Assembly: GCF_006345805.1 (NCBI RefSeq)
Contig: NC_043007.1
Span: forward strand, 64,294,001-64,358,000
Source of the DNA: Octopus sinensis
Taxonomy: Eukaryota
DNA length: 64,000 bases
Direction: 5' to 3'
How positions within the stretch are numbered: the stretch's first letter is position 1; each line of letters begins with the position of its first letter. Shown here in pieces: positions 12,005-51,308 of the stretch. Made by a program: the position numbers and the translations under genes. Under the pieces are notes generated by a model. It did not search any database, was not told the DNA's origin, and saw nothing but the letters and a program-made list of their open reading frames with translations.

Positions 12005-12170
12005 TTCTGTTCGAATAGGATCAATATGTATGTGTATAAATGCATATGGAATATGTATGTGTATGTATGTATTTAGACACATGCACTTTTATATACATAA
12101 GCACAATATATTTTTATATACATTGTTCTATCATTAACGTAATGTTATTTTCTCTTTTTTTCCCCTCTAG

Positions 12171-12191
12171 CTAAATCTTTAAGGAATGAGG
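12171..12191 (+). CDS. Candidate 21-nt microexon of MARK/PAR-1
   Basis: Branch-like cattaac, very strong tract ttttctctttttttcccctctag| and a weak donor GG|gtatta. Open in phase 1-1: (A)KSLRNE. Confidence 0.35.
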
Positions 12192-13616
12192 GTATTATTA
12201 CAATTCTTTATTGTTCCTTTCAATTGAAGGCACGGACTTGATGCATGAAGCTATTAGATGTACTGAAGTAAAGTCAGAGGTTCTTTACATCAATTAGAAC
12301 CATTCCTTTTGTGCACCAAATAATAAATAAAAAAAAAGTTCTAACACATTGAGTAACTCAAAGGTCCATAAATTCACTGAAATAATGTACGTTTTGATGT
12401 AATGGAACAGGAAAGATATTAGTGAATTAGATAATAAGTTGAAATATAAATTATTGTATAATGGAAATCATTTTTACATAATTATTAAATACTAATTGGG
12501 AAATTAACATTTTTTGGTCCTCACTTTTCCTCTAGTTTTATATATAACGACAGCTATTCAAAACATTCATAACTAGAACATTCACCCAATCTGAATTCAC
12601 AAAATTTCTGTTTTGTTAATAGGTGGTTTATTCTTTTTCTTGGTGTGAGAACTCTTGGGTATCAAGATATAGATTGGTATAGAGCCCTATAAATAGCCAG
12701 GTTAAAGTGAGTGTGAGGAAATTATTGTTGCTGTGTGTATATTGAAAATCGTATATATAAACTTACTGGATATTATAAAGTGTTTGAGATTAGTAGTTGA
12801 TATGAAGCCTTTCATAATTATTACATTAAAATTACTCCATAAAGAAGTTAATATGTATGGAGATATCTTAACCAATGGCTCTGATCCTCTCTTTTTCTTT
12901 CTCTCTCAAATGCAGAATCCTTCAACTTAACTGTATTTGCTTGTTTTGTTCTATGTTAGATTAGTTCTAAAGGTTATATTTTCAATTGTGTTGATTGGTG
13001 TATTTTGTCTTCTGGCCATAGATGCATTTGTAACTTTTTTTTTTTGAAAGATAATCTTATTATCATAAGCAATTTTTGTTCATTAACTGTTTGAAAATTT
13101 GTTGTCAGAATGCATGGTTGTCTTCTTATATTGTTTTTATTTGACAGTCTTGATTAGTTCCACAACAAATATTTTTAAATGGACAGATAATACTTTGTTT
13201 TTAAATCAAGGGAAAATAGTCTGGTTATTTAGCTCAAATGTGCAGTAGACCTATATTTTTGTTAATGTATTGCTATTTCTCTAGACACAAATAAATATCA
13301 AACATATGTATACTGCATCTCACTACGAATTTAAACGATTGGTCTAAGTGGAACAAATAATTAAGAGTGAATATACTTGATATATTTTTTCAAATCTGAT
13401 TCACACATACACTCATTTGTGTATCACATAGTTTCATAGGCAATGCTTTTTTTTTAATGGTAACCAATTTTCCTTTTGTTCCCAGTCCCTTCCCTGCCCT
13501 TCCTTCTCAGATCTAACAACTTATAAGGAGGGAACTTCCATGGATAAACTGCTAATGAATTAATTTATCTTTCAGATCAATAATTTTCTTTTGAAAACCT
13601 GTTTTTCTTTCTTTAG

Positions 13617-13667
13617 TGTCCTCAACAGAGACAGGTTCCAACATAAATGGCCTACATCGCTATCAAG
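13617..13667 (+). CDS. Candidate 51-nt cassette exon of MARK/PAR-1
   Basis: Strong pyrimidine tract gtttttctttctttag| and donor AAG|gtgaga. 51 nt, open in phase 1-1, the phase required by the UBA exon: (V)SSTETGSNINGLHRYQ plus a final G that completes GAT. Confidence 0.6.
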
Positions 13668-18120: not shown

Positions 18121-18972
18121 CGGGGTACTAAAAAGTAATGTTGCATTTTATGTAATGAGTTCAAATCAATATAAAACATATTGTAAATATATTTAGTCAT
18201 TCAAAATACAATCACCAATGTTAGCAATAACATTTTCCCCGCCTTGGAACTAGTTTTGATTTCTCAGGCTGTTCTTTAGAAAAGAAAAATGTTTGGAGTG
18301 CCATTTGAACATCATCCCTACTTCTGAATGTTTTTCTACTGATAAAGTGTTCAAGTGACCTAAATAAGTGAAAATCTGATGGTGTTAAATCTGTTGAGGT
18401 AGAGCTTACCAGCCTAACAAATTTTTTACTTGGATTATCTTATTGAATGCACTCTTATTCATGAGCTCATGAGGTACTCATTTCTCTTCGCTATACACTT
18501 TCTTAATCTGCCTGAGATGACCTTGTACAGTGAACCAAAGTTTATTTAGCTTTTAGGATGAATCCCCAATATTTAGATACACATCCTTTTCAGTTGCTGT
18601 TTTCACTGTGCCATTGAGAACAGTTGGCATTCTTGATTGATACCCATCCGAAAGATCAAAATTGACATTTTTGAATTTGTTAAACAACCCTTGGCATTTT
18701 GAACCCTCTCTATCAGAATACACAGTACATATGTTTTCCCTTGCAGATGTTGCATTGTTACCCTTACAAAATTTGTAAAACCTGCAATACTAAATATGCA
18801 GCTCACTAAAGTCCATGTGATCTATATGATAGAGTGTATGTACACACAGTGCATATCCACATTAACTCTATGCTGATTGGTTGATTGCAGAGGCACTATT
18901 TTGGCCTGTAAACTATTTGTAGTATGATGTTAGAATCTTCGCTTGAAAATGCTGCATTACTTTTCAGTACCA
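18121..18972 (-). mobile_element. Internally deleted mariner element
   Basis: About 28-bp TIRs ggtactaaaaagtaatgttgcatttt / aaaatgctgcattacttttcagtacc. The minus strand near 18350-18400 reads STDLTPSDFHLFRSLEH (mariner YSPDLAPSDxHLF) and near 18650-18700 FNKFKNVNFDLSD (mariner HTH region). Confidence 0.82.
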
Positions 18973-24235: not shown

Positions 24236-24661
24236 GTGAGTAGATTGTTTGAAATTTTTTTTTAATCACAGTTTTATTTTTTTTTAACATACCACAAAAA
24301 TTGCTGATTACATCAACTTTTTATATTTTCATTCATTTTCCTGGCAGCAGGAGTGAGAAAGGAGTGTCTAACTTAATGCAAGGGTCTTGATTCATAAAGC
24401 ACCATTTTCTTGTTTAAAATGGCAAAAGATACACACATAAATAATGCAGGCTTCCACAGCCTCTGTCTGCTAAATTCCACTTATAAAATCTTGGTCAATC
24501 CAAGACTATAGTATGATATCTGTTGAAAGCTGTACAGTAGAATCAAATCTGTAATTGTGTGGTTGTGAAACAAGCTCCTTAATCATATAGCCATTCCTGT
24601 ACCCATTATCAAATGTTTCCCATGTGATTCATATCACCTGTTTCATTCATTCATTCATTCA

Positions 24662-24698
<37 letters not shown>

Positions 24699-26960
24699 CT
24701 TGCATTTTTAGACCGCTTATTGGAAGTTTTTATTGATGTTAATACTACTATAATTCTGTCATACTTCTATAATTAGTTTTTCATCAAGTAATTCTAATTA
24801 TTTTATTTATTGTTTATTTTTCTTAACATGTGGTAAATTTCTAAATCGTCAAAGTAAATTTGCAGAGATGTTATTTGTGCATTAGAGACAATGTTTTGCA
24901 AATTTTGCTCTGTCTCTATACTCTGAATCCAGATCCCACCAGAGTCAACTTTGCCTTTATCCATTTGGGAGTTAATAAGCATAGCACCACACCAGTGATG
25001 ATGCAGCCTCCTCTTCCTCTAGCTTTCACATCTGGGGAGATCAAAAGGGTATCTATGTGTGTTCGCAACCACATGGCCCCTTTAAACAGCAAAAGTATTA
25101 TTGTTCATACAGCTAAGTCATACTCAGTTGCAAGTGATGGTCATCGCTTATTCCCTGCTTAATTTTCATTATTTCTTCTGAGTTATTTTATACATTATAG
25201 GAACAAGTTAAGAAGTCATGAGAAAATAATGATACTTCTAAACTAAGATGAAAAAATTTCAAAATCAAGTCAGATGTAGTTCATTATATGTATATACTAA
25301 CAACAGGTTTTATGAATTGGTTTGAGGTTTGACAAACTAAAAATTATCATCATTATCTTAACATACATATTTCCTTTCTCATATGGTTCATTGAGGTAGA
25401 TTTTCTAGTTAGATGCCCTTCCTGTTATATTTTCCCATGGCCAGACATGTTTCCATGGAAGTTTAGAAATGAAGAACACTGCTTGTTTAAGGTTGAAGCT
25501 CATTTATAACTATCACATGTTGTCAAGACAGAGGTACACACCCCTGCATGCATGCAGAGCACACACATATACACAAAACAGGCTTCTTTCAGTTCTCATC
25601 TACCAGATTTGTTTACAAGGTTTTGGGCAGCTTAGGTTATAGTAAAAGATGTTACCCAAAATTCCACATAGTAGGACTGAACAAAATGCCATGTGGTTGG
25701 GAAACTTCTTGACTGCATAGCTACGGAATGTGCCCAGAGTGAAAGGCAAAGTTGACCTTGGTGGGAACTCTGGATGAAGAAATGTCATAAAGCATTTTTC
25801 TGACACTAGCAAGTTTGCCAGCTCGCCACCTTAAAAAAAATCTCAATAAAATCATGTAAGCACATTTAATTTTCAAAAAGATTTAAGGAGGGTTATTAAT
25901 ATAAAGTGAAGTTATTGTTGTTGAAATATCTTAGTCTTCTTGAATATTTTTTCTTTAAAGCCCTTTTAGCTTGAATGATGACCCCATACCCTCATCCCAC
26001 CCATCTTCAATGTTTTCACAGTTGAATGTGCTTCTTGTCAAAATGTTGGGAAGAAAACCGGTTTTATTTTTCAAGCAACTGAAGATAAGAGTTACATGCT
26101 TCAATAAGGAGCATAGTGCAATTATTTGAAGTGGTTGAAATTATGAGAATGTAGTTCTGCATGTCTAACAGACATTTGTAATCTTTTTATTGTCATTACC
26201 ATTACTAGTATTAATTTTAAAATTTCAAGTATAGCCCTGTCACACAATTGGTAGATACCTGATGAAAGTCATCATTAAGGTCATTGTGGAGTTAATGAAC
26301 CATGAATTTATATCAAGATAAGATGCTAAGAGTGAAGGAACCACAGGAGAACTGCTTCATCATTGCATTGTTCATTAGCTCCAAAAAATAAAGAACTAAA
26401 TTTCCTTTACCATAAGTTCCATAAGAATCTAGAAAAATTTTGGGATTAGGAATGACTATTGTTTCTCGTGTCTCCCTAATAAGAAACTGTTTCTTGTCAA
26501 TGCTGTTTAATCCATTAGCTACCATACACTGCCTTTAATTCAATTACATTTGAAAATGAAAAATTTAATAAAATGATTTTGACATTATTATTAAGCTAGT
26601 GTTAGGACATAAATTAATATGAAAATTTGATGGAAATGTTGATTCGGATCACTTTAAATATTGAGTTTGTATTATAAAACTAGGGGCTGGTAATATCGAA
26701 AAAGTTAAATATAATCATTGCATTTGTCCATCCTTGCTCCCCTCCCTTTATTAACACTATTAATTTTCTCATTCTGTTTTATACATATATATCATCATCA
26801 TCATCATCATTTAACGTCTGCTTTCCATGCTAGCATGGGTTGGACGGTTCAACTGGGGTCTGGGGAGCCCGAAGGCTGCACCAGGCCAGTCAGATCTGGC
26901 AGTGTTTCTACAGCTGGATGCCCTTCCTAACGCCAACCACTCCAAGAGTGTAGTGGGTGA

Positions 26961-27395
26961 TTTTATGTGCCACCGACACAGGTGCCAGACGAGGCTGGCG
27001 AACGGCCACGCTCGGATGGTGTTTTTATGTGCCACCGACACAGGTGCCAGACGAAGCTGGCGAACGGCCACGCTCGGATGGTGTTTTTATGTGCCACCAA
27101 CACAGGTGCCAGACAAGGCTAGCAGACGACCACGCTCGGATGGTGTTTTTATGTGCCACCGACACAGGTACCAGACGAGGCTGGCGGATGGTGTTTTTAT
27201 GTGCCACCGACACAGGTGCCAGACAAAGCTAGCAGACGACCACGCTCGGATGGTGTTTTTTTATGTGCCACCGACACAGGTGCCAGACAAGGCTAGCAGA
27301 CGACCACGCTCGGATGGTGTTTTTTATGTGCCACCGACACAGGAGCCAGATTAGGCTGGCGATGGGCCACGATTGGATGGTGATTGTTACGTGCC

Positions 27396-27397: not shown

Positions 27398-28173
<776 letters not shown>

Positions 28174-28385
28174 TAAAATGGTAGGGGGTGGGGATTTTGC
28201 AATTCTCAAAAGTTATTTCCTATTAAAAAAAAGTTATTACAAGAAAGATTTCATCTTGCCTTTCTATTGAAAATGTTTTGTGAACTGTTGCCTTTTTATC
28301 AAAAGTTTTCATTTAAAAAATGTGTAATGAAAAATACATTTCTCTGAATGATAGACATTATTTTCTTTCCTCCCAATTATTGCAG

Positions 28386-31858: not shown

Positions 31859-32037
31859 ATTAGTGCAAGTCCTGTTAGAATGTCGGTACCAAAAAAACCA
31901 AGTGGACCTTCTACAACACCAAAGAACAATGTTGTAAGTGGTTCTTCTCTAACACGAAGAAGTACTTTTGGACCTGGAGATAATAAGACAAGTATAGAAA
32001 AAAATAACAGAACAACTAATGGTCAAGACTACCGGAG
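31859..32037 (+). CDS. par-1: MARK/PAR-1 kinase spacer exon
   Basis: Bounded by ttgcag| and AG|gtaaga, 179 nt, phase 0 to 2. ISASPVRMSVPKKPSGPSTTPKNNVVSGSSLTRRSTFGPGDNKTSIEKNNRTTNGQDYR; LTRRSTF...NG corresponds to MARK MTRRNTY...NG. It is the tail of ORF 31766..32041. Confidence 0.9.
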
Positions 32038-34620: not shown

Positions 34621-37220
34621 AGAAAAATCAAACAGCATTTCAACTCGGTGTGAGTGTATGTGTGTGCGTGTACAAGGGAAGTATGGGAATGTATGTGAAC
34701 ATTGACAAGTGTATTAATTTGATTTACCATCCATCAACTAGTAATAATGATAATGTACTGATATCTTATGGCCTAGTAAATTGCATTACACTGTTTCTAC
34801 TTGGTGTATTTGGATACTATGAAGTCTTTCCAAATTTATTATACAATCTAGCATTGTATCATTTTCACTGCATGGCACTAACACAAATCACTAAAATTTG
34901 GTTCCAGAAATTTTTTAAATATTGAATATTTTAATGTCAGTAGCACATAATTGCATTCTAATGGCTTGATTATTTGGAACAATTGTCTAAAATGTAATTA
35001 AAACTTTTTTTTTTTAATTATTACAATGCATAATTAATGGAAAATAGAGAATGCTATGAGGGTAGAATTTTATTCAATTTTCCTAACATAGTATGCATTT
35101 TTCAGAAAATTATTTTGAAATCATTTAAAAATGATAACAATTTTGTTGCATTTGCCATTCAAGATTAGCTGCTTCTGCTATTCAAGCTAATTGTTTGTTC
35201 CAGAAATAATTCTCATGTACAAAATTTGAACTGATTATTTTTTTTTTTTCAGTGAAATGGATATATATTTTAATTTCTATCATTATTTTACAGTAATACA
35301 AAGCACATTATTTAGTAACATTTTCTCTAATACATTATTATATAACTAGTATGCTGAGTTTCCAGCATATTGTCTATTCATGTTATGAAATTTAATACAT
35401 CTGGTTGATGAAAGAGGAAAATCTAAATGTGCATCAAGTCTATAAATTTGCTTTAGCTTAGGATGATGAAGCTGCTTCTACTTTGGTTGGAAACTTATTT
35501 CAAGAATCTGTAACTCTAAACACAAGAAAATGGTATACAAACTTTTGAATATAGTTTTCAGTTGGAATTTTGTTTTTAAATATTTTCCATTTATACACTG
35601 ACTAATAGTCATAATTAGGAAAATATTTACTTTCATTTAAAATGAAAATTTTCAATTTGATATGCATGTAAACTTTGTAGACCAAACTTTTTCTTCTACT
35701 CCCTAATTATACATCAACTAACTAAACTATTATCCAACAAGTTACTAACTCATACTCATCTAGTGTTATGTGGTGGCTATTTAAACTTTCATGAAGATGG
35801 GGACTTTATGAAAATGTTAAAAAGAAAACTCATGTGCAATGCTTACTTTAACCAAAAAAGTAAAACCTTAAATTGCTTTCCTTTTTAATATTCTGAATTT
35901 TTATCACTCACATCAGAGGTTGATGGAGGAAATTTGTCCTGTCAAATGAATTTAATAGATTTGTTCAGATGTCCTAATTATTGATTTCTATTTGGAAAAA
36001 ATACTTTTTAAAGGACTGGTTTTTATTTTGTTTTTTGTTTACCTGAAATGCTGTTGAATTCTATTGAGTAAATTGGTAATTATTTTTGTTTGTCATATTC
36101 CAGTTTTGACTCACAGCAAATTCTTGTAACAAATCACTTTTACTTATTTTCACTTCTGGTAATTACATTAATTTCGGCCCTGCACAAACCATTTAAAGTC
36201 TGCTGGATATCTTTACATCGAGTCAATATTTACAAAAACACAAACTCTAAGCTTTCTCTAAATAACATATTTTATTAACATTAATTTTTACTCACATAAA
36301 CTACTTGTAAAAATCAAGTGATTTACATATTTTCTAGATTACTTCTACTTTGTTTATACAAAATTAGATATACTCATAAGTTTATTTATTAGATTCTCTT
36401 ATGTTCTGTACTGAACACTGAAAAAAACATGGTTTTCAAGTAGTTTAGTTTTTAATTTCTACCCAGCAAATTGAACTAATATTAATGGTATATAAACTTC
36501 TTTAATAGCTCTGAGGCAATCAGAAAGAATATGTTACTTGATCCAAAAATAGGTGACATTTCTTTCCATTGAAGATTATTTGGTCTTTCTTTGACTGCTT
36601 CCAGTTCATCTTGGAATTGTTTTGCCTCTTATATTTCCCACAAGCCTATAAAAAGTTTAACTTTTTGTAAATAAAAAAGGAACCAGATGAGTTCTTTTAG
36701 TCAAGATAATTGTCTTCTACAAATGATGTTAGATGAAATATTGTTTGTTTGATTTTCCGTTGGGCCAAAATCACTCTGTTCATATAATTCTACACAAGCT
36801 CAGCATATCAAAAGTTCAAATGCTTCTCTTAGAGTTTCTTCTGATTCCATTAAGGAACACAACACATGTATTTCAAAAATAGGAATATTAGAATAATCAA
36901 ACTGGAGAAACATCAAAAAATAGTTTTACTGCTAATTACTTAACACGTTATCATTATATCAACACTTTTCTATCACATTGTTATTATTATACTGTCTGAT
37001 GGCTCTGGTTTTGCTGCAAAGATTCTGTGGTTTTAAACTTTTTGTTTATGCAAGAAATTCTACAAATACAGAAGATCAAATATATTATGCTACTCATCAA
37101 TGCAACAGCTATTCAGATTTACCATATGGATTGATTGGCCTTCATCAGTGTCTCTGCCTCATTTCCTATTAGTAACTCTGCCTGTTGTAATGAACCTGAG
37201 AATCTGCTTTTCTCTTCCAG

Positions 37221-37370
37221 CCATATACCAAATTCTACTTCCAATCCATCTTCAGAGCCCCCATCAGCAAGGCCTAAGGGCCATGTAAAGTCAGCCAGCA
37301 CATGTCAACCATCACGAGTCCCAGATTTGCCACCTATTAGTTCAGACACATCTGATACCTATAGGCCAAC
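37221..37370 (+). CDS. par-1: MARK/PAR-1 spacer exon, symmetric and probably a cassette
   Basis: Bounded by tctcttccag| and |gtaagt, 150 nt, phase 2 to 2. (S)HIPNSTSNPSSEPPSARPKGHVKSASTCQPSRVPDLPPISSDTSDTYRPT resembles MARK1/2 ARP..HQKSMS....LPP......RP. Confidence 0.88.
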
Positions 37371-37669: not shown

Positions 37670-39792
37670 CTACCACATTTTTCATCAAATTGAAAATTTT
37701 GTGATGCAGTTAACTTAACAATTCCCATCCCCGTTTATCATTTAAACAGAAAAAAATAAAGGGAAATAAGTCTTAAATAAGCATTTTTGTCCTCAAAAGT
37801 TGATATCCATTTTTGCTCTTTCTTACAGGACTGTGTAAATAATTATAGAACTACTCTAGATTTAATTTATATGGACCTATGTTGTGTCTATTGAGGTGTA
37901 AAATTTTGCTTCTAGTGATGTAAAATTCTGTTCAGTTACTGTGAACTCAACTGAAGTATGTTTTTTGTATTATTATAGTTCAATTGATAATTATTTTTCT
38001 TAGACAATTTCCAAGTTCTCATATAAGTTTCTATTCATATACTTTAAATTATGTTCTTTAAATAAAGCAGTATTAAACAGGTTCCTCTTACTTTTGAAAT
38101 TGTAAGATAGTGATCTGATTATGATTCAAGGAATAAGTGTTGATATGGAAATAATATTAACAGCAACAACAGTAATAATTATTATTGCTTTTTATCTAAT
38201 TTTTACTGTTAAATAAAATTAATTCAACTAAAAATAATTTTCTAATGATTAGTTTATTTCCTTATTACTGAACAGATTATGTTTCCAAGTATCTTGCATA
38301 TATTTGTTGGTGTGTGTCTGTATGAGCTTTGGAATTGCACAAAATTTTGACTGAGTTTTTATTATTTATTTTTTCTAAAATTTATTTACAGATTTTTAAA
38401 ATGTTGATGCTGATTTGTTATCTCATGATTGTGTATTTAAGTTTTTCAGTCCCTTTTTTTGTTACTAATACTTTGAATTTTATGCCCCAAATCCCCATTT
38501 TTTTATGCATTTTCTTGGATTATTATTTTGTAGATTAGAAACATTTTTTCAATATTGTTAATCATCACTAAAGCTTTAAAAAAAGTTTGATGTATTGGGT
38601 ACCCACCTACTTCATAAATTACAGTAAATCCACACTGTCAAGTTAGAAATTCGTTCTTTAGAGCAAAAAAATATATATACCAAAATATCTTTGGAAGAAT
38701 TCAGTCCCACTTCCACCTCTTATATAATTCTAAATTGATCAGAGTGCAATATTAGTCTTTTTGACTCCTATTGCTTTTTTCCTTACAAAAATTTCAGATT
38801 TTGTGTCGTAGGAAATTACAATTATCAGTATGATAAAGATGAAGTATCAGAAAGCTTAGTCTTCATGTTATGTACAATCTCTCACACAGTAATAGATTCA
38901 AATTTTAATGTTAACTTTCATTTTTATTCTGTAAAGTTGATAAAAATAAGTATCAAGTAATAAATTTGATTTCTTAAAAAAAAAAAAAAAAACTCTATTG
39001 TTGACATGTTCTAAACTACAGCAGAGAGATTTTTTGGTGTTTTATATAAGTTTACTTTATTTCCCATTGCAGCTACTTAATTATACTGATGTCTTTAGGA
39101 AAATCAATGTTTGAATTTCACAAATCACTCACTATACCAAGTTTTATCCCTCTCTAAAATATTAGCAGCAACAACTTTATTACTGTTTTACAACTCCCAC
39201 TGCTACAAACTGCATGGGTTACATCATACCTTTTCAATAGAGATTATTACTTAAGAAATTTTAAAAATTGTATCTGATTCAGGTCATAAATTTTAACCTG
39301 ATCTTGCCTGTGCTGCATGTAAAAGTATGCAATATATAGCTTAATCATTTAAATCATCACATCTTGAATACATTTACTGTAGTCCACTCTGTTACAAGCA
39401 TATGGGCTAGGTATCTGGTTTGGGGATAACTTCTTCACACCAGCCACAAGTCGCCTTGAAAGGGGCTGCAGGTACTACCTTTCCTATTTTGACTAAAGCA
39501 TTAGGGGAAGGCATTATTTTTGGAGTTTTGTTTGTTTTTTAAATCTATATTTAAGTAGCCTTGAAAGGAACTGCAGGTACTACCTTTCCCTACTTTGGCC
39601 AAGGCATTGGGTTTTTTTTTGGGGGGGGGGGGTAAATCTACCTTTTTAAAAAATACCAATATGAAAACATTGCAAATCATCTTTATCTATTATTATTATT
39701 ATTATTATTATTTGTTTGTTAGTGTGAATTACTGAGTCTATAAATAAAAAAAATAATATTTGTTTTATCTCACAATCTTATTTCATTTTCAG

Positions 39793-40020
39793 ACCGGCTC
39801 AAGGGAAAACTTCAATTCCCTTATCACCTGCTGCAAACAAGCCTTTATTCCGAGGCACAGCAGGCCGAAATACATTCCACGGAGGCCACATTAGGGACCG
39901 ACGGCAGTTCAACCAATATAACGGCCCTGGTGTTCCTGGGCATACTCAGGATACCACAACAGCCGGACAAGTAGCTCGAGTGTCTTTCCTGAACAAACTA
40001 ACTTCAAAATTTAGTCGAAG
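39793..40020 (+). CDS. par-1: MARK/PAR-1 exon with aPKC site and membrane-targeting helix motif
   Basis: Bounded by ttttcag| and AG|gtaagt, 228 nt, phase 2 to 2. PAQGKTSIPLSPAANKPLFRGTAGRNTFHGGHIRDRRQFNQYNGPGVPGHTQDTTTAGQVARVSFLNKLTSKFSR matches MARK RG..SRSTFH...R.RR...YNGP...FSKLTSK. Confidence 0.96.
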
Positions 40021-43000
40021 GTAAGTGGCTAAGGGAGTTACTGCCTATTTACTGACACTACATCTGTGAAGGGAGAAATATTGCTGTATCTGACTCATGG
40101 CCTTCAACCAGCTCCCAGAGTGAAGCTTTTTTTTTACATTCCCCATCTCCCATTTCTTAGATTGGTTACTCACTGTGTTGTGACTGATTATTATTTTATA
40201 TTTGTCACTATGTGACTAACTTTTAGTCTCTTCCCATAGACGGATTTTTAGAGTCTAATACTATGTTGATCTTTTAGTCAGCACTGTTCAACAAAGGCTT
40301 TGTAACAAGAACAATAAAGTATTTTTAAAAAAATATATATTATTCTATCGTAGTTTATCTTTTTCTTTGAGTAGATTTAGACATAAAATTCTAAAGAAAA
40401 ACCTTTTTTGTTTTTCTTTTTCTTTTTTTGTCTTCTTCTGAACGGTAAACATCAGCCTATATTATGGCAACTTGAATTGGTTTGTAAAGTATTTCTGCAA
40501 ATGAAGTTCTTTACATATCAAATAATGTTTTAAATTATTTTATTGCTGGCCTGGGATTATTAATTTATTTACTCTTCAAATTTGTAAAAACCTTACACTT
40601 CACATTTAATTTTAGACACGTGTTTCTGAAAGGGTTGTTTTCTCCACTTCTTGATTTATTAGTTTAGAGTTTGGGATTTATGGAAATAAATGAGCTGTCT
40701 GATGATAAATGAATTGGATTCTTGGATGAGGCACTTTACTCTATCAGTCCCAGACTGTTTAGATACCTTCAAGAAGAGTTGAAATGAGATAAAACAAAAT
40801 CTTTCTCTCTCTTCCATCCTCTTTTTCTTATGCAGCATACACACAAATTAATGATATACAATGGTTATATTGTAAGATATTTTGTTGTGGTTTCATTCAT
40901 CCCCATAGACATTGCATTATGTGAACAAATAGCTTCAAATTTTTGTCTGAGAAGCTAAAAGATGTACCCTATCTTATTTGCAGTAAGAAATGAACCAAAA
41001 TGTTTGTTGAATCCAAGATTTAAAATATTGTTTGTTTCATGGCACTTTGGGAATGTGTAGCAAGGTACACGCATCCATCCATCCATACATACAGAAAGAC
41101 ACAAACACACCTCTCTCTCATTTATTTCTACATGTATAGTTGTCAGTCTTTCAATGATTAGGATTCACTTGTTTGATTAACCTTCTTCAGAATTACTTTG
41201 TCAATGACTGAGCATTCTTCTACAGATTCATTTGTCTTGAATGTAATTCTCAGGTGGAATCAGTGTGATACAGTGTGTGTGACAAAACTGTACCTTTTGA
41301 ATCACATGTGCAATCTATCTGATGTACACAGTTTCAGTCACCCAATTTTACTTACAAGATATGAGTTATCTCAGTAAATGACACACAATGGGATAGAGCC
41401 CAAGACCTCATGAGTGCAAAGAAACCTTAACAGCTCTGCCATAATATACTTTACGTATTTTATGTATACATATAACAATTTACACACACACACGTTGTAT
41501 GGAAACATCTTTTTCTCCTTCTCATATGCATATGTATTTGCATCTTATTGTTTGTTTGCTTCTATGTCTGTATTTTGTTGTGTGTTTTGTGTTTGTTTCA
41601 TTTCTGTAAGGCTTATTGAAGGCTTATTTTACCCTTTTCTCTGGTTCAAATGAAAATTCAGTTATTGTGATTTGTGTATTTGTAATGTGATTTCCTGTTC
41701 TTAGGACTACAGTATTCTACAAGTTTTAAGAGTCCTTGTATTCTAATATATTTATATATTGTTATATTTGATCTAATCTTACAAATATAAACTTGGGGAT
41801 TTTTTTTTTTTTGATAAATATTTATCAGCAATGGTGATGCACAATAACTGAGGCAATGGTGTTACAATGCTCTGTCTTAGGTTCAAACATTATGTTTGTT
41901 TTCCTAGTAAAGGCACATAGCTTTGCTTGTTTCAGCTTGCCTTATTGACAAACTGGTTCTATTTCTATTTCATTACTGCATATTTCACTCTAAAATCAAA
42001 TGATTGAACTAAAATTTCCCTCAGTCTTACATGAATGAGACAACTGAAAATTGTCTTTGAAAGGTAAAAGATAAGCATTTTTTTGTGTTAGAAATGAAAT
42101 CTATCCTTCATCAGCGATCTGTGTTTATTTTTACTGTGAAAATAATCTGTACATATGCATGTGTATGTGGGTGTAGACTTGTTTCAAACTTGCAATATAA
42201 AATTTAGATCACCTCCATTAGAGGATAGCTTATCTCCCCTTACAATTTTTTTTCTCTTTTTTTTATTTGCTTCGACGTTCAATACTCTCCCCACTTTAAA
42301 AAAAAAGTTATGTGCAGACTAAATTCTCTGTACATGGGAAGAACTTGTAAATGAATAGTTTTAGCATAATTTACATATTGCTTAATTTATTTATAACCAC
42401 CCACACATGCAGTCACACCAACCTTAACAGCATTTTCAGTTTTAGATGACAAAATTAAAACTCCAAAATTTATTATTCAATTGTAGTCTCTGTATATGTC
42501 TTATTTTAGAATAAGAAGTAATAATAATGAAATAATTTTTTTAAAATATTACAATACTTTGCAAAATATTATGAAATGAATTTATTTCAATGATGCAATT
42601 ACATTAAAATCTTTTGATGAGAGTGTAATAAATTTACTGTTAAAAACGTTTTTGTATAGTACTTAATCCACATAATTTACACACACACACACACCACTGT
42701 TTTGGATTTATGTACCAAATATTACTTGAGAGATGAGATGAGTTTAGTAAATTTAGATAGATATGCTTTTGGAGCTTGAGGTTTTACTGTTAAATGCAGT
42801 TGACTACTTTATTAGTGGAATATGAGTGTAATATGTTGACACCTAAGTTGACTGAAGTTATGTATATATGCAGTGATGGCAGTAACTGGACAAGATGTTC
42901 AGACCCTGATTATCCTTATCCTCAATGCCACAGTGGGTGCAACTTTAGAGCTTGGAAAATTTTGGGTGATGTGAATAGACTTTAATGGGTAATTTATAAG

Positions 43001-44755
43001 ATGAACTGAAATATATGCATATCACACATTTTGTATGTTGCCTAATTCAAACTTTTTCTATATAACTTATAATCTCACTGCACAACATATTATATAATCT
43101 TATAGTTATTTGCTGTTGGCAATCCATATTTCTAAATTTTAATTGTATGATGGTTGATTCAGCCTACCCGTTTTGATTTGAATGCTACAAGGAAGTAAGT
43201 CATTCTACACTGTCTGGCAGATTGTATAATAAATTATAGCTGCCTGCCTACATAGAGCTGCCAGAGATGCAGCATGAACTTGGTTTCTTTTTAACAGCCC
43301 TATTTGAGCAAAGTTAACTAGGGCTTCCTAAGCCAACTAACATCTTAGCTCTGCGCGTGCGCACGCACACACTAACATACACACACACACACCTCCCTGC
43401 CTCTCAGGCATTCACTCCAAAATAGTAAATGGCTACAAGTATTTCTTACTACCACAGGTTGTCTACTATACAAGAATACTTCTAATCAGAAAGATATTGC
43501 TTAAATATTTTAGGTGTATGTATTTTGACTTACAGTTATTTAGATGTATAAGTAATGCCATTGTTACCTTATTGTCTAGATTTCTGTACTTGCATACATT
43601 GGATGTGTCTGGAATACAGCACTTCTTCATGCATCTGAAACCTTATATTGCCCCAAATCTGTTACAGTTGATTCTATTCTAAGTCTTATTTGATGTGACA
43701 CCATCAACAACTCTTACCTCTTTTCCACCTGGTTTCACTCGACTACAGAAGGCATGAAAGGAAGTGCTAAGGTCAAATGTTTAAAAACCGAAGGGAAGAA
43801 GCAAAGAAGTAACACATGATAGCTTTAAGGATTGTAATAAGATACTCTATCTAATTTTTGTCAGCATACAAAAATACTGTAAAATGTTGTGCATAGTGTG
43901 TGCAGGCTGCATTTGCACATGTTTATATGAGTAAATAGATACACACATTCACTATGCAGAGAATAATGGAAGTAAATAGGTTTTTGCATAGCTACAACTG
44001 AAATCTGTACTATATCATCCTCATCTATCATCTGTGTTCCATGCTGATATTGGTTATATATATGTGTGAAATTTTATTTTCTTTCATACTGTTTACATTA
44101 GTTTTTCTGAGTTACAAATAACTTAGCCATTTTAGCTGTTTACCTATTGTTGGAGCAATTGTTTTTATATAGCTGATTGCCCTTCTTTTTTAGTATTACT
44201 TTGAAAGATTAGAGCCTGTTATAAGTTGGGTAGAATGGAGCTATATACTTATGCATTTCTTGGAAGCATAACAATGAGTGTAACACAATTCTAGGTCTTT
44301 ACTGTGTACACATACTTGCACAAGATTACTTATTGTTATACCTTTTTCTGTCTCATTATTGACATTGTTGATTCAGTGGAAACTTTCTGGAGTATGAGAT
44401 CCAGGTGTGTATGAAAACTGCTTTATTATACACTGGCCAAAATAAGTTTAAAACCAGTGATGACAATTTCATTCCTTCATTAATATATTTTTAACAAAAC
44501 TGTATAAAATTATTTTACTTTCTACAGTATATGCAGAATTTTTTTTCTCTTTGGAATGATATAGGAATTAGATATCTTTTTACAATTCAAATAATTTTAA
44601 TGTGCAATTAATTCAAATGATTAGAAATTCTCAGCAAAATAAGTTTAAGACTGTACCAAGATTATGCAAATTAATAAATTAAAAGGGTGGTCATATGGCT
44701 GGTCGTACTGCACTATTTTGTTTAATAATTGAGCATTGTTACACATTAATTCAGT

Positions 44756-45755
44756 ATGGGAAAGTGTCATAGTATCAGTCCAGTTATTAGATCAGAGATT
44801 GTGTTACTTGATCAGCAAAATGTGTCCTTCATGAACATTAGCAAGCGATTAGAATGCAGCAAAATGGCTTGTGTTCAAGCATGGAAGCTTTATCAAAGCA
44901 CTAGTCAATACAAAAATTGGCAAAGAATGGGTGCTCTGAAAAAGACAACAGTACAGATGAATCGGGAATTCATAGGCTCTCTGAAGGTAACCAAATGCTA
45001 ACAGCAGTGGACATTTGCAAGCAATTATCTGATGCAACTGACATCAGCTTTACACCACAAACTGTCAGAAACTGCCAAAAAGAACTTGGACTGTTTGGCT
45101 GGATTGCTTGAAAGAAGTTGAAAATTTCTGAGATGAACCAGCAGAAGCAGATCAAGTTTGCTAAAAGTCATATTGAGTGGATGACTGAAGACTGGGCAAA
45201 AGTTCTTTGGAGCAACAAATCCCGCATCTGCAATTTTGGATCTGATGGAAAGACTTATGTTCGACACTGTCCAACTGAAGAATTCCATCCTAAGTATGTC
45301 AAGAAAACTGCGCAAACGGGGTGGGGGTTGAAGGTAATGGTGCTGGTCCAGTTGTTAAGGTTGATGGCAGACTGAACAGTGTAGGCTATCTGCAATTAGT
45401 AAATGAAAATGTGCAGCTATATTTAAATAAGCAGATGCCACCGGAATCTATTTTCAAGCAGGACAAATGCCCTGTTCATAAGGCTAGAAAAGTTTTGCAA
45501 TATTTTGAGTGCAATAATATGGTGGTTATTGAGTGGCCTCAGCAGAGCCTAAATTTGAATCCAATAAAAAACTTATAGAGTTATGTTTCTAAAAAGAGTT
45601 CATGCTAAGAAACCAACACATTTGTTCCAATTATATAATTTTATTGAAGAAATATGGCAGAACTTTCCAAGTGATTTTTGTGCTTATTTGTCGAACTCCA
45701 TGTCCTCCCATTGTATGGTCATAATTGAAAATAATGGCTATGGAACTAGATACTA
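44756..45755 (+). pseudogene. Tc1 transposase pseudogene (DD34E type)
   Basis: Split over ORFs 44756, 44917, 45118 and 45321. Motifs WAKVLWSNKSR (from WSDES), IFKQDKCPVHKA (QDNAPxH) and WPQQSLNLNPIKNL* (WPxQSPDLNPIENLW) show frameshifts, stops and mutated catalytic D/E residues. Confidence 0.92.
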
Positions 45756-46174: not shown

Positions 46175-48753
46175 TATTAGTACAGTCTTAAAAACTTATT
46201 TTGCTGACAGTTTTTAATCATATGAATTAATTGCGCATTAAAATTATTCAAGTTGTAGAAAGATATATAACACCTATATCATTCGCAAGAGAAAAAATTC
46301 TACATAAACTGTGAAAAGAAATTTTATACAGTTTCGTTAAAAATATATTAGGAATAGAACTGTCATCATTTGTCTTAAACTTATTGTGGCCAGTGTAGTT
46401 TTAAGAGGTCTATGTACAGTTTTCTGGGCATTTTGCACATAGAATAGGCATGAAACAAGGTTTATAGATTGTTTCAATTATCATTATTGCAACAAGACTT
46501 GTGGAAGCTTTTTACATGTATAATGATTAAATCTATATCAATTGCGAATTTGGTGGTTATATTTTACCCTCTCTAGGATTACGACTAATTTCCCAGAACA
46601 TTTTGTTACAAACATCATGTATGATGGCATCCAGTGCTGTTCCTTATTGAGTAGCAAAACAATTTAAATTTGCTAAGAACACCAGCAAAATTTAGAAGTT
46701 TCTTTACCCCAATTTAATTTGAGGATAAGTAAATTTAGAATTTGTGTTGGTGATGTACAATTAAAAAGCAATCCCAAATCACTTTCATCACTAAACTTAA
46801 AAACCTTGTGTGGTAGAGTTAACCTGTCACCTGGTATAACACTAGCACTGACACTTTGGGGACCTTAAGTGGTGGCCAATCTGTTTTAAGCATTTGGACC
46901 AGGTCTCTGGTTTGAGGATACCTTTCTCCTACTAATCTAGGGGACTCTGTGAAGGATCATATGGACTGCCTTTTCTCTTGATAAGGAAAGATTAGAGAAT
47001 AACTAAATTCACTTACTGCAGTGGAATTGTGCTACATGCAAGAGAAGCTGAGATCTACCTAGCTGGAAAACTATAGATTTTATGAGGTGACTTCATGCTG
47101 CTTTGTATCTGTTTACTAAGTTAACAGACTCCAATGTGAATGCTAGCTATATATCTTTGTGACTAGATTCTTGGGGAACTGTTTAAAAGACATTTTAATT
47201 AATATTTGCAAACTTCTGTTATTAGGAAAGGCAATCATGGAATAACTTGTTTCCTTTCATTTTCTGTATAAGTCCTTGGTTTGTGCCTTGATTAAGAATT
47301 GTTAGCGTGGCTGATTCTGGTATAGCAGTAAATTCTAGTGCATTATCTAGTTTTGTTCCCTAATGGTAATCACTTTTTGGTAAAGACAAAAATATCAACT
47401 TTCAATTACCTATCATTCATATTTAAGAAGATCAAATATTTGTCTTTCTGTTAAATATTCTTATATTTAAGTTTAGAGATAAGTTCTTTTCACATCATTA
47501 ATTGGAAATTCTATTAGCTTATGACTAAGGAAGGTATCTTTTCATCTATCTTTGGCTTTTTGTTATTTATATGAAAACACTTGGCTCCAAAATGCATAAA
47601 TAGATGTCTGACTAAATGTATTTAGCTTTAATTCCTATCCACACAATGAAAGTAATTGAAATAGTTTTTGGTTGGTAAAGATTATTGTATTTTGTTGTCG
47701 GTGTAAACTTGCATGTGTTTTAGTTAATTTAGTTGTTCATTAATTTTTGTGTATGTTAAGTCATCTTGGACCATACAAATTTTCTTTCACACAATCACCA
47801 ATGTTTTATTTTCCTCTACAATCCTCTTCTTTTGATTGATTATGGAAACATTTAAAACTTCAGCAGTAACTGGTGCCACACATTTCTTTTGTTTCAAGTG
47901 TGAATTTACAGTGTGGCTTTATTTCTGAATAATTAAAATGTTAGATAGGCCCCTCTTTTCCTCCTTATGTAAAATATAACAAAACTCCCTTTTCTTTAAG
48001 TTTCACATTTATAACCTCATCTTTTATTTTTTGTGTAGCATATACTTAGAAATGTTACATCTTCACCTGTTGTTGATATACAACTTTTTGTTTCTTTGTC
48101 CTACAACAAGTAGTTGTTATTTAATACTTTAACTCCTTAAAACTGCTTCCCACACCATATCTTGTTTTCACTAGTTTCGGTCATTTGACAGTGTCTGTGC
48201 TGTGGTACTGCCATACTAGTTGATGGAAAATTGTCTCATTCATTTCTATTATTTTTCTTTTCATTCTTTTTATTTTGACTTTGATTTTGTTGTCATTTCT
48301 TTTCAGAAACATATAATGTAATTTTTATTTTTTTAATTTTTAGTTCTAATGCATGCCACAGGAGAATGTATATGGTCTCAATAATTTCATGCAAAGTGCC
48401 TAGGGAAACATTACTTATATATTCGATTTCCGAACATATCTGTAATTAAATTCTCTAAATTCATCTACCACTATTTCCCCTCTTTTTCATGAGCTGCTAA
48501 ATTCTCACATTGGATTTTACCTATGGAATTTAGTTGAAATTTATACTGGCTTGTCAGTTTATCCATTAAAACAGTATTACAGCTAGTATCTCACTTAAGT
48601 GTGCTGTGAAACTATCATTTATACTAAGTCGGACAGCTTGTATTTTTAGTTATTAGTATTAGCTAACCATAGAATAGGACAGGTCTACTAAATCTTGTTA
48701 GCCTTCTCCATCACAGCAACATTATTAACTCCCATGTTCTACTTCCTGAACAG

Positions 48754-48786
48754 GAGTAAATTGAGTCTCCGCCAATTGGAACTGAA
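48754..48786 (+). CDS. Candidate 33-nt microexon upstream of KA1
   Basis: attaac..ttctacttcctgaacag| acceptor and AA|gtaata donor. Phase 2-2, open: (R)SKLSLRQLEL. Confidence 0.5.
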
Positions 48787-51272
48787 GTAATATGATGACG
48801 TCGTCTCTCGTAAGATGGTTGCTGTCTCTTTGTAAGTGTTAATGAGTGTATTTTCCAACCCCTTTCTCAACCATCACACCTTCTCATCATCTTCACCACC
48901 ACTGTTATTACAGCGTTTTGTTACCTCTCAAATAGTGTTTGTGTATATATGTATAGCTGTGTATGTGTGTTGGTACATACATGCACTTTATACACATGCA
49001 CTCATGTGCCACACATACACTTTAATAATACAAGCTTCTTTGTTTCTTTTTAAGTTGTGTGTGTGTTCAAATTGTTTGAATTTTTCCAATTTTCTAATCA
49101 TAAAACTCTGCTTCATTCTTTACCATTTAGTTTCATTAAATACTTCTCAACACCACTTAGGAAGATATGGGTTGGAATTTCTATTGTTTTCTTGAGAATT
49201 ATTATTTCAGATTCCAAGAAACATGTGCACGATGTCTGTTTTCCTTATATTTATGGGTAATCAATTTTTTCATTTGTTTCCTTATAGTTATTAGTATATC
49301 CTTTATTAAAAATTTTTCAGTTATGTTGAGTTGCCTTCTCTTGAATCTTATCTATATTCTGGCAATTCCTTGTTTGTCTTATCAATTAATTTGTGATGAC
49401 TTAGCAATTGTGTCTTTTTCCTCAGTTTCAGTAGTTTATTGGATATATATTTGAAAGTCTTGTTTTGTTTTGGGTTTTTATTTACACTTTTACTTTTGGA
49501 TTTAAACTTAATATTATTCTCCTGCCTACCTTCTTTTAGCAGCAGTTAACTATATCCAATAGTTGTTGGAAAAACAAAACAAAAACAAAGAGAGTGAGAG
49601 AGAGAGAAGAAAAACATTCTTAGATCATGTTCAGTATTCTTCATATATTTCAATAATAATTTAAAGCAGTGAGGAGTCTTAGATGAGAAACGGTCTATTC
49701 GACCAACATCAATTTTATATCTATCAGAAATATTATTGTGCTAACATAACGAAAATTTTAATTGGTGGTAGATATGAGTGTCATTTGGCCCCTCCAACCA
49801 AGCCCTAGTCAAGCAGTCTTACAATCAATATTCTTTGAATTGCAACTATCCCATCTTTTTCAATCCTTTTCAGACTATATGATTCAGTGCCTTCCTTTCT
49901 TTAGCATAGCAAGGATATGATCTAAAAGAGATTTGGCTTCTGTTTTTAGCGAGCCAGATGCCTGCATAGAGACTGCTCTGTTGGCTCATGGGAAGATGTT
50001 GGGGATGAGTGGTTGGCTGTGCCTAGCATCTTTTCTTTTTGTAGGGCTTTTCTTTGCTTTTATTATCTTATCTAGCTACTATTTTGCTCTTATGTTGTTT
50101 TCTCTGCATATCCTGAAGTGAAGTTTTTACAAATTTGATACAAAACTAAATGCACATAAAATCCAAATTCATTCATAAACTTTGCATCAGAAGGAGAAGA
50201 ATTCATGATGTATTCTTCTGTTTCTTGATTCTGTCCAATTGTTACAGATGTCAAATGTTAGGGTTATTTTTCTCCCTTTTATCTGAGTATTTTTTTATTT
50301 ATTTCTTTTTAACATTTAAAATTTTTTGTATGTGTTGGAATAATTTTACATTTAAACTAAATAAACAAATTAAGTTTTATTTTATAGATTTGTAAACTGT
50401 TTCTTTTTTATATTTTTTATTTTATTTTTATTTATTTTTTTCTTTTGTAGCTATTGTTTTTCTTAATATTAACATAATTTGTGTATTTTGCTTATGTTCA
50501 TGTTTGAAAACATATTTATTAGTCTGAGTTGCCATGAATTTGTGCTGTCTTGTGAGATGACTGCCCACTCAACATCTTACACAACAGATTATAAGGGTTA
50601 GGGAATAAATCATAATTGGTATTTGCTAATTTGTAATATTTATATGCACAGACACATTAATTCTTTTTTCCCATAAAACACTCAAATCAGAATTTGAAAA
50701 CTATTCTTACGTTCAGTTTAGTTCTTTCCATTCTGATAACCATCCTTGATAACCCCTGAGAAATTATTTAAATAGCTTTTTGTAAATAAAATGTAGCAAA
50801 TATACTTTGGTGAATAACTTGTAAACTAAACTTGTGTTTTCATAATTTGATGTAAACTTTTATTTCAATAAAGATTAATAATAATAATAAACTAATTAAT
50901 AATAATAATAATAAATAAATAAATATATAGCATAATAATCAGTTCTGTAATCTATATACAAAATATATATTTCCGTCTAGATCATTGCTGAAAGAAGGGA
51001 AGGCATCAATAACTCAAATACAAACTAGTTATAAGCTGCTTTATTGTTGTCTTTTCATTGCATCACAGTGAAAACTAGTAAACTCACTTGTTGACTAATC
51101 CAGTCCCTGTAGTTTAGTGTTAAGTAATGCTTTTGCTTTACCAATATGGCAACACCCCACCCGGAGATTTGTATGATTTTTTTTCTCCCATAAGAATCTT
51201 TTAGGCTAATTTTCTTTTAAAATATCTCGTTTTTACTCTTTATAAGGTGACAGCTTTTTTAATTTCTTCCAG

Positions 51273-51308
51273 TGGTGACCCCAGAAGGGCATACACAGAT
51301 ACCCCCGG
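51273..51308 (+). CDS. Candidate 36-nt microexon upstream of KA1
   Basis: ttttttaatttcttccag| acceptor and GG|gtgagg donor. Phase 2-2, open, GC-rich island in an AT-rich intron: (S)GDPRRAYTDTP(G). Confidence 0.62.

What the first reader, a model, noticed from the sequence alone, without database searches (positions are those of the whole stretch)
48754..48837. Exon with competing donors straddling a stop codon: a possible KA1 on/off switch
Seen: after the acceptor at 48753 the phase-2 frame reads RSKLSLRQLEL-K-TAA. The first donor (AA|gtaata) overlaps the stop, giving a 33-nt in-frame microexon. Two stronger donors lie just downstream (gtaaga at 48810, gtaagt at 48832). The last makes a 78-nt (3n) exon whose only interruption is that single TAA, with the frame open afterwards (YDDVVSRKMVAVS). 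The stretch is locally CpG-rich. Inference: donor choice toggles between full-length kinase and a KA1-less or NMD isoform. More speculatively, readthrough or double A-to-I editing (UAA to UGG) could open the long form, as coleoids edit heavily.
Basis: partly seen in the sequence, partly recalled or inferred. Interest (0 to 1): 0.7.

Follow-up and report, generated by a model that had tools for sequence, protein, structure and literature searches.

The report
Stop-codon exon in octopus MARK kinase
A rarely used 78-base exon in the octopus MARK/Par-1 kinase gene is spliced in and carries a stop codon, which likely either sends the mRNA to decay or yields a kinase without its membrane-binding brake (KA1); the proposed in-frame 33-base version and rescue by RNA editing were not seen.

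Summary
It lies in the last introns of the octopus MARK/Par-1 gene. In three raw RNA runs of a related octopus its acceptor took 11 of 248 junction reads counted. Read depth stops at 48831 and 5 reads join 48831 to the next 36-nt exon Y, so the 78-nt stop-containing form is the one seen. One contig shows a run-through form ending 11 nt after ATTAAA, likely a terminal exon. No use of the 33-nt or 56-nt donor reached the listing threshold. No A>G was listed at the TAA, and no pairing partner for ADAR was found. The open post-stop frame is chance-level (0.15-0.19). RefSeq already lists the KA1-less product (XP_036363508.1). New points: the stop lies 77 nt before the last junction with Y and 41 nt without it, on either side of the 50-nt NMD rule, and a 7xYCAY Nova-type cluster sits 40 nt past the used donor. 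Verdict: a minor poison/terminal exon, like human MARK4S in outcome; regulation and NMD untested.

The parts
39792..40020 (+). Upstream coding exon U of MARK/Par-1, ends ...SKFSR with a phase-2 donor
   Evidence: tblastn 100% to MARK proteins; junctions from 40020 in RNA
48714..48753 (+). 3' splice site of exon X (pyrimidine tract and AG at 48752-53)
   Evidence: U to X junction 40020>48754, GT..AG, 5/5/1 reads; 7 reads in X22 and one contig in X8
48754..48831 (+). Exon X, 78-nt cassette form with an in-frame stop; adds RSKLSLRQLELK and ends the protein
   Evidence: Raw-read depth confined to this span; 5 reads join 48831 to exon Y; P0031 ends with this peptide
48788..48790 (+). TAA stop, 41 nt before the end of the 78-nt exon
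   Evidence: Sequence; no A>G row in X21, X22 or X8
48787..48792 (+). Candidate donor 1 (33-nt, in frame); use not seen
   Evidence: Weakest consensus match, 5 of 11; most reads pass through it
48810..48815 (+). Candidate donor 2 (56-nt); use not seen
   Evidence: 6 of 11 match; depth across bin 48798-48831 is whole reads in X21
48832..48837 (+). Donor 3 (gtaagt), the donor in use
   Evidence: Loose ends behind 48831 read as exon Y, 5 reads in X22
48871..48902 (+). Cluster of 7 YCAY motifs, 40 nt after donor 3; predicted Nova/Pasilla-type inclusion enhancer
   Evidence: Only 1 of 9 exons examined has 6 or more in a 45-nt flank window; background about 0.01 per 200-nt flank; binding not tested
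48832..49151 (+). Run-through extension of exon X, likely a terminal-exon 3' UTR; ATTAAA at 49135-49140
   Evidence: X8 contig of 428 nt: 28 nt of U, then 48752-49151 with 0 differences; no poly(A) tail shown
51273..51308 (+). Exon Y, 36-nt in-frame cassette (SGDPRRAYTDTPG); its inclusion moves the stop in X from 41 to 77 nt before the last junction
   Evidence: U to Y 237 reads; Y to last exon 75 reads in X21; present or absent among annotated isoforms; distances

Best explanation
Exon X is a minor alternative exon of octopus MARK/Par-1 that is spliced in as a 78-nt cassette carrying a stop codon, and it likely acts as a regulated off-switch for the full-length kinase: most X-containing mRNA would be degraded by NMD and a smaller part would give a kinase without KA1. 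Shown: acceptor use, the 78-nt donor, X joined to Y, the genomic stop, and loss of KA1 in the encoded protein. Inferred: (1) X+Y mRNA has its stop 77 nt before the last junction and is an NMD candidate; (2) X joined straight to the last exon (41 nt) and the run-through terminal form fall outside the 50-nt rule and could be translated; (3) the product would lack membrane targeting and autoinhibition, as KA1-deleted PAR-1/MARK does; (4) the downstream YCAY cluster could let a Nova/Pasilla-type protein raise inclusion. Full-length kinase comes from skipping X.
For:: U>X 11 reads, U>Y 237 reads (4.4%, 95% CI 2.2-7.8%; an upper bound because U joined to the last exon lay outside the stretch); depth only on 48752-48831; 5 X>Y reads in X22; 14 extra letters past 48831 in X21 fit two reads going to the last exon, whose first 7 letters match the genome at 6 (inference); spliced run-through contig in X8. 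XP_036363508.1 ends in this exon, has the kinase domain and no KA1, while P0041 has KA1. Signs of constraint: seen in two organism labels; no difference listed over the 78 nt in organism B reads; CpG retention; DNA of three other organism labels holds 0.74-0.76 of the 31-mers of 48600-49000; single copy in G000. YCAY cluster lies where Nova and Pasilla enhance inclusion (PMC3165201, passages). 50-nt rule: PMC9019110, passage, stated for mammalian cells. KA1 role: PMC6890249 and PMC12727705, passages.
Against: Inclusion is low (1.7-6.0% per run), and the three raw runs are one study of unknown tissue with about 6% of each run read. Identity over 78 nt is not significant (P=0.36 at exon U's rate), and no neutral background was measured for the 31-mer shares. 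No X-containing protein was found outside this octopus: 0 of 8 cuttlefish or cuttlefish-like sequences and 0 of 27 full-length bivalve proteins listed (searches added none). NMD, protein and regulation are untested; one search found no paper on junction-dependent NMD in molluscs beyond one unrelated hit. The YCAY cluster was one of 6 motifs scanned, so it is post hoc. The X8 contig could be a splicing intermediate. X joined to the last exon is inferred from depth, not read.
Confidence: 0.6

Rival explanations
1. Unregulated splicing noise: X is a lineage-limited cryptic exon, included at a few percent and cleared by NMD with no function.
For: Inclusion 4.4% or less; no homologous peptide outside octopus among the proteins listed; conservation not shown to exceed neutral.
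Against: Used in two organism labels; CpG retention in the top 0.3% of intron windows; YCAY cluster next to the used donor; a few percent at steady state is sizeable for an NMD candidate.
Confidence: 0.22
2. One reading: donor choice within X toggles between an in-frame 33-nt microexon (full-length kinase plus 11 aa) and stop-containing forms, in tissues not sampled here.
For: The 33-nt form is in frame with all downstream routes. Bivalves carry in-frame inserts at this position, one also of 11 aa.
Against: No loose end listed at 48786, while 48752 and 48831 were listed for X22; at least 5 of about 8 reads (X21) and about 6 of 7-8 (X22) pass the donor; 0 of 21 octopod proteins listed carry the in-frame form (3 of 18 members of the main cluster were not shown); weakest donor; the overlap with the stop follows from the letters G-TAA. 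The bivalve 11-aa insert does not resemble X by eye.
Confidence: 0.13
3. Double A-to-I editing (UAA to UGG) or readthrough opens the 78-nt exon and gives full-length kinase with a 26-aa insert.
For: The 78-nt exon is 3n, is the used form, and is open after the stop; three CpGs persist after the stop; stop-loss editing is handled in coleoid pipelines, but as UAG to UGG (PMC8382921, passages).
Against: Two edits on one molecule are needed, since one edit leaves a stop. No A>G row at 48789-90 at depth about 7 per run (a row needs 3 reads); 5 and 7 reads are at least 99% alike; the X8 contig has 0 differences. Local fold z = -0.51; best duplex within 40021-64250 is -25.4 kcal/mol, weaker than all 20 shuffles. 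The open frame is chance-level. One organism A contig has G>C at 48803, an amino-acid change in that frame. UAA is the least leaky stop (recalled).
Confidence: 0.05

Closest known systems
RefSeq XP_036363508.1, 'MARK1 isoform X10' [Octopus sinensis] (P0031)
   Same: Ends KLTSKFSRRSKLSLRQLELK, which is exon U plus exon X to the TAA; kinase present, KA1 absent.
   Different: The protein record does not say which donor or 3' end is used, nor anything on NMD or regulation.
Human MARK4S / MARK4L splice pair
   Same: [quoted passage not shown]
   Different: The octopus exon carries its own stop and leaves one or two junctions downstream, so NMD is predicted. MARK4S is described as an expressed isoform. 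Homology of the exons was not tested.
Poison exons / AS-NMD, such as Trim46 exon 8
   Same: Inclusion puts a stop at least 50 nt before a junction (PMC9019110, passages).
   Different: Here a second cassette (Y) decides whether the distance passes 50 nt, and a terminal form also exists. NMD is not shown.
Short alternative exons before the KA1 exon in bivalve MARKs
   Same: Same intron position and phase; inserts of 11, 16 and 18 aa, and the shared KLFRR alternative acceptor.
   Different: All 27 full-length bivalve proteins listed keep KA1; none shows a stop-carrying exon.

Membership tests
Poison exon (AS-NMD) | Exon is included in mature mRNA | tested here: met
   U>X 11 reads, X>Y 5 reads
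Poison exon (AS-NMD) | In-frame stop at least 50 nt before a downstream junction | tested here: met
   77 nt for X78+Y; only 41 nt for X78 joined to the last exon
Poison exon (AS-NMD) | Isoform rises when NMD is blocked | not testable with these tools
   Needs UPF1 knockdown or translation block
Poison exon (AS-NMD) | Exon and flanks conserved above neutral | tested here: inconclusive
   31-mer shares 0.74-0.76, no difference listed in 78 nt (P=0.36), CpG retention; no neutral background measured
Composite cassette/terminal exon | Spliced at its acceptor and extended past all donors | tested here: met
   X8 contig, U plus 48752-49151; one contig only
Composite cassette/terminal exon | Cleavage and poly(A) after a signal | tested here: inconclusive
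   Contig ends 11 nt after ATTAAA 49135-40; no tail shown
In-frame microexon (33 nt) | Donor at 48787 is used | tested here: not met
   Not seen in about 15 reads or in 21 octopod proteins; minor use not excluded
Stop-loss A-to-I editing site | A>G in RNA at the stop | tested here: not met
   No row at 48789-90; low depth, so editing below roughly a quarter to two fifths of reads is not excluded
Stop-loss A-to-I editing site | Double-stranded RNA around the site | tested here: not met
   Fold z -0.51; best duplex weaker than 20 of 20 shuffles
KA1-less MARK/Par-1 isoform | Kinase domain kept, KA1 lost | tested here: met
   Pfam: P0031 has PF00069 and no PF02149; P0041 has both
KA1-less MARK/Par-1 isoform | Protein is made | not testable with these tools
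   Needs proteomics or ribosome profiling
Nova/Pasilla-enhanced exon | YCAY cluster just downstream of the donor | tested here: met
   7 YCAY at 48871-48902; other 8 exons at most 3; post hoc
Nova/Pasilla-enhanced exon | Binding and dependence on Nova | not testable with these tools
   Needs CLIP or knockdown; an octopus Nova gene was not looked for

The most novel reading that the evidence does not exclude
A two-exon logic gate: a Nova-type factor switches on stop-exon X, and the separate 36-nt exon Y decides the outcome by moving the stop across the 50-nt NMD boundary. X plus Y destroys the mRNA; X without Y makes a de-repressed, membrane-free MARK kinase in particular octopus cell types.
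Probability: 0.15. Interest if true: 0.68.

Novelty: new member of a known kind. Interest (0 to 1): 0.36.

Why it matters
KA1 both anchors MARK/PAR-1 at membranes and inhibits its kinase (PMC6890249, PMC12727705, passages), so an exon that removes it or cuts the mRNA would tune a core polarity kinase. If regulated, it would parallel vertebrate MARK4S by independent means. The 41-nt against 77-nt pair in one gene is also a ready internal test of whether junction-dependent NMD works in a mollusc. The general design is known and the truncated protein is already annotated, which limits the surprise.

Tried and rejected
No RNA holder was on record (no evidence either way); the lays supplied the evidence. 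X14 gave only an unspliced contig of depth 2 ending at 48767, and X1 only unspliced contigs here: uninformative on donors. Depth at 48934-49001 is cross-mapping on a TG/TA repeat, as are the Rfam hits, all far below gathering scores. My first reading, that raw-read depth in 48851-49644 showed a terminal exon in organism B, was withdrawn after one search showed zero depth outside the repeat up to 49575. Protein searches for X in other species found nothing new; only cluster representatives are searched. A second look at the main cluster again hid 3 of 18 members. Supplements of PMC9699675 were searched by gene name with no hit, but only 24,410 characters were read and the PDF was not searched, so its long-read annotation may still hold this exon. 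Paper searches listed no study of this exon, judged from titles and abstract starts; the one listing with all of octopus, MARK, cassette exon and NMD was unrelated on reading passages. Earlier findings of the scan: none returned. A transposon origin was not supported (one copy in G000; that search skips common words). No fold or complex job was run, as none bears on the question.

Full report
Gene and anatomy. The window holds the middle and late exons of a MARK/Par-1 kinase on the + strand; exon U (39792-40020) is 100% identical to octopus MARK proteins. After U come the candidate exon X (from 48754), a 36-nt exon Y (51273-51308) and, just past the window, the KA1 exon with two acceptors 15 nt apart (L002:300 and L002:315). 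All junctions are phase 2. In-silico splicing shows that skipping X, or a 33-nt X, keeps the frame to KA1, while the 56-nt and 78-nt forms stop at TAA 48788-90.

Observation. The CpG content is unusual (4 in 78 nt; 0.3% of intron windows reach that). Two features are not unusual. Thirteen open codons occur in 44% of intron windows and 57% of local shuffles, so 'open and 3n' has a chance of 0.15-0.19. A donor-like GTAA overlapping a stop follows from any in-frame G before TAA; U's own donor has the same property.

Annotation. Of 21 octopod MARK proteins listed, one (P0031, XP_036363508.1) uses X and ends at its stop; none carries the in-frame 33-nt form. Three of 18 members of the main cluster were never shown. 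Pfam finds the kinase but no KA1 in P0031, and KA1 in P0041. None of 8 cuttlefish or cuttlefish-like sequences contains X, though three contain Y. All 27 full-length bivalve proteins listed keep KA1 and vary by in-frame inserts at this position (15 of the 48 members of the largest bivalve cluster were listed).

RNA evidence. Three raw RNA runs of organism B (one study, tissue unknown, about 6% of each read; a related octopus with three fixed differences in U) gave U>X junctions in 5, 5 and 1 reads against 101, 79 and 57 for U>Y: 11 of 248, 4.4% (CI 2.2-7.8%), an upper bound since U joined to the last exon was outside the stretch. A finer lay of two of these runs shows depth only on 48752-48831, apart from a TG/TA repeat. 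In X22, 7 reads enter from U and 5 leave at 48831 into Y. In X21 the depth in 48798-48831 equals 5 whole reads, so none leaves at the 56-nt donor, and 14 letters past 48831 fit two reads going to the last exon, whose first 7 letters match the genome at 6 (inference). No loose end was listed at 48786 or 48809; rows need 3 reads and 5 rows were hidden. By depth, at most 2 of about 8 reads in X21 and 1-2 in X22 could leave at the 33-nt donor. A contig of run X8 (organism A) carries 28 nt of U, then 48752-49151 unbroken with 0 differences, ending 11 nt after ATTAAA: likely a terminal-exon form, though a splicing intermediate is possible.

Editing and readthrough. One edit of UAA leaves a stop, so two are needed on one molecule; the coleoid pipeline in PMC8382921 (passages) treats only UAG to UGG. 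One search lists no A>G at 48789-90 at depth about 7 per run; 5 and 7 reads are at least 99% alike and up to 4 are 95-99% alike, two of which the junction mismatch above would explain. Majority editing is thus unlikely; low editing is not excluded (bounds 22-43%). The region folds no better than shuffles (z -0.51), and the best pairing partner in 40021-64250 is weaker than all 20 shuffled queries. One organism A contig has G>C at 48803, which changes a residue of the post-stop frame.

Mechanism. Shown: X is included mainly as a 78-nt exon and closes the frame before KA1. Inferred: with Y the stop lies 77 nt before the last junction, without Y 41 nt. The rule of at least 50 nt (PMC9019110, passage, mammalian cells) makes X+Y an NMD candidate and lets X alone and the terminal form escape. 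Whether that rule holds in molluscs is unknown; one search found only an unrelated paper (listing). A translated product would lack KA1, which mediates membrane binding and autoinhibition; its deletion raises basal PAR-1 activity and shortens worm lifespan (PMC6890249, PMC12727705, passages). Seven YCAY motifs lie at 48871-48902, 40 nt after the used donor. The other 8 exons examined have at most 3 per 45 nt, and such clusters start in a given 200-nt flank about 1% of the time. Nova and Pasilla enhance inclusion from this position (PMC3165201, PMC4633719, passages). This motif was one of six scanned and is only a lead.

Function or noise. For function: use in two organism labels, CpG retention, the YCAY cluster, single copy, and DNA of three other organism labels holding 0.74-0.76 of the 31-mers of 48600-49000 (about 1% divergence if changes are independent). 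Against: low inclusion, no neutral background for those shares, non-significant identity over 78 nt (P=0.36), and no counterpart outside octopus in the proteins seen. I put regulated poison/terminal exon at 0.6, noise at 0.22, the 33-nt switch at 0.13 and editing or readthrough at 0.05.

Comparison and novelty. It works like a poison exon and, in outcome, like human MARK4S, where one extra late exon changes the C-terminus and the short form is neuronal (PMC10390814, PMC10835012, passages); exon homology was not tested. The truncated protein is already in RefSeq. Ten paper searches listed no study of this exon; subscription journals are not covered, and the long-read annotation of PMC9699675 was only partly searchable. 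That paper finds octopus splicing rates like those of other invertebrates and editing rarely altering splice sites (passages). Verdict: new member of a known kind, interest 0.36; the Y-gated choice between decay and a de-repressed kinase is the reading worth testing.

Noticed in passing
window 40021-40320: A second KA1-less exit: U's donor reads AG|GTAA, giving R then stop if unspliced. P0029 (XP_036363509.1) and the unnamed P0045 end SKFSRR; reads run into 40021-40144; AATAAA at 40313.
   Followed up: partly
L002:300 and L002:315 (just past the window): Two acceptors 15 nt apart on the KA1 exon add or omit KLFRR; the same choice appears in scallop and freshwater mussel proteins, and Solemya has the longer form.
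   Followed up: partly
upstream of the window (P0001 against P0027): Two alternative versions of about 30 aa after the kinase domain, apparently mutually exclusive exons, occur in octopus, cuttlefish-like sequences and scallops; neither is encoded in the window.
   Followed up: partly
window about 12170-12191 and 13616-13666: Further small optional exons (AKSLRNE, about 21 nt; VSSTETGSNINGLHRYQ, 51 nt) vary among annotated isoforms.
   Followed up: no
window 37219-37370: Optional exon of about 50 aa: present in P0002, absent in P0001; 95 reads in X21 join the exon at 32035 directly to U.
   Followed up: no
window 44750-45575 (+): Decayed Tc1-like transposon: DDE_3 and HTH_SB matches below curated cut-offs.
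   Followed up: partly
window 18224-18789 (-): Mariner-like remnant: HTH_48 (Mos1) match above cut-off at 18556-18789.
   Followed up: partly
window 26815-27351 and 27560-28200: A GC-richer repeated unit followed by a very long (TA)n-type run, seen as repetitive ORFs.
   Followed up: no
window 24620-24666: Another YCAY-rich stretch (TTCA repeats, 8 motifs) about 380 nt after the exon ending near 24236; probably a microsatellite.
   Followed up: no
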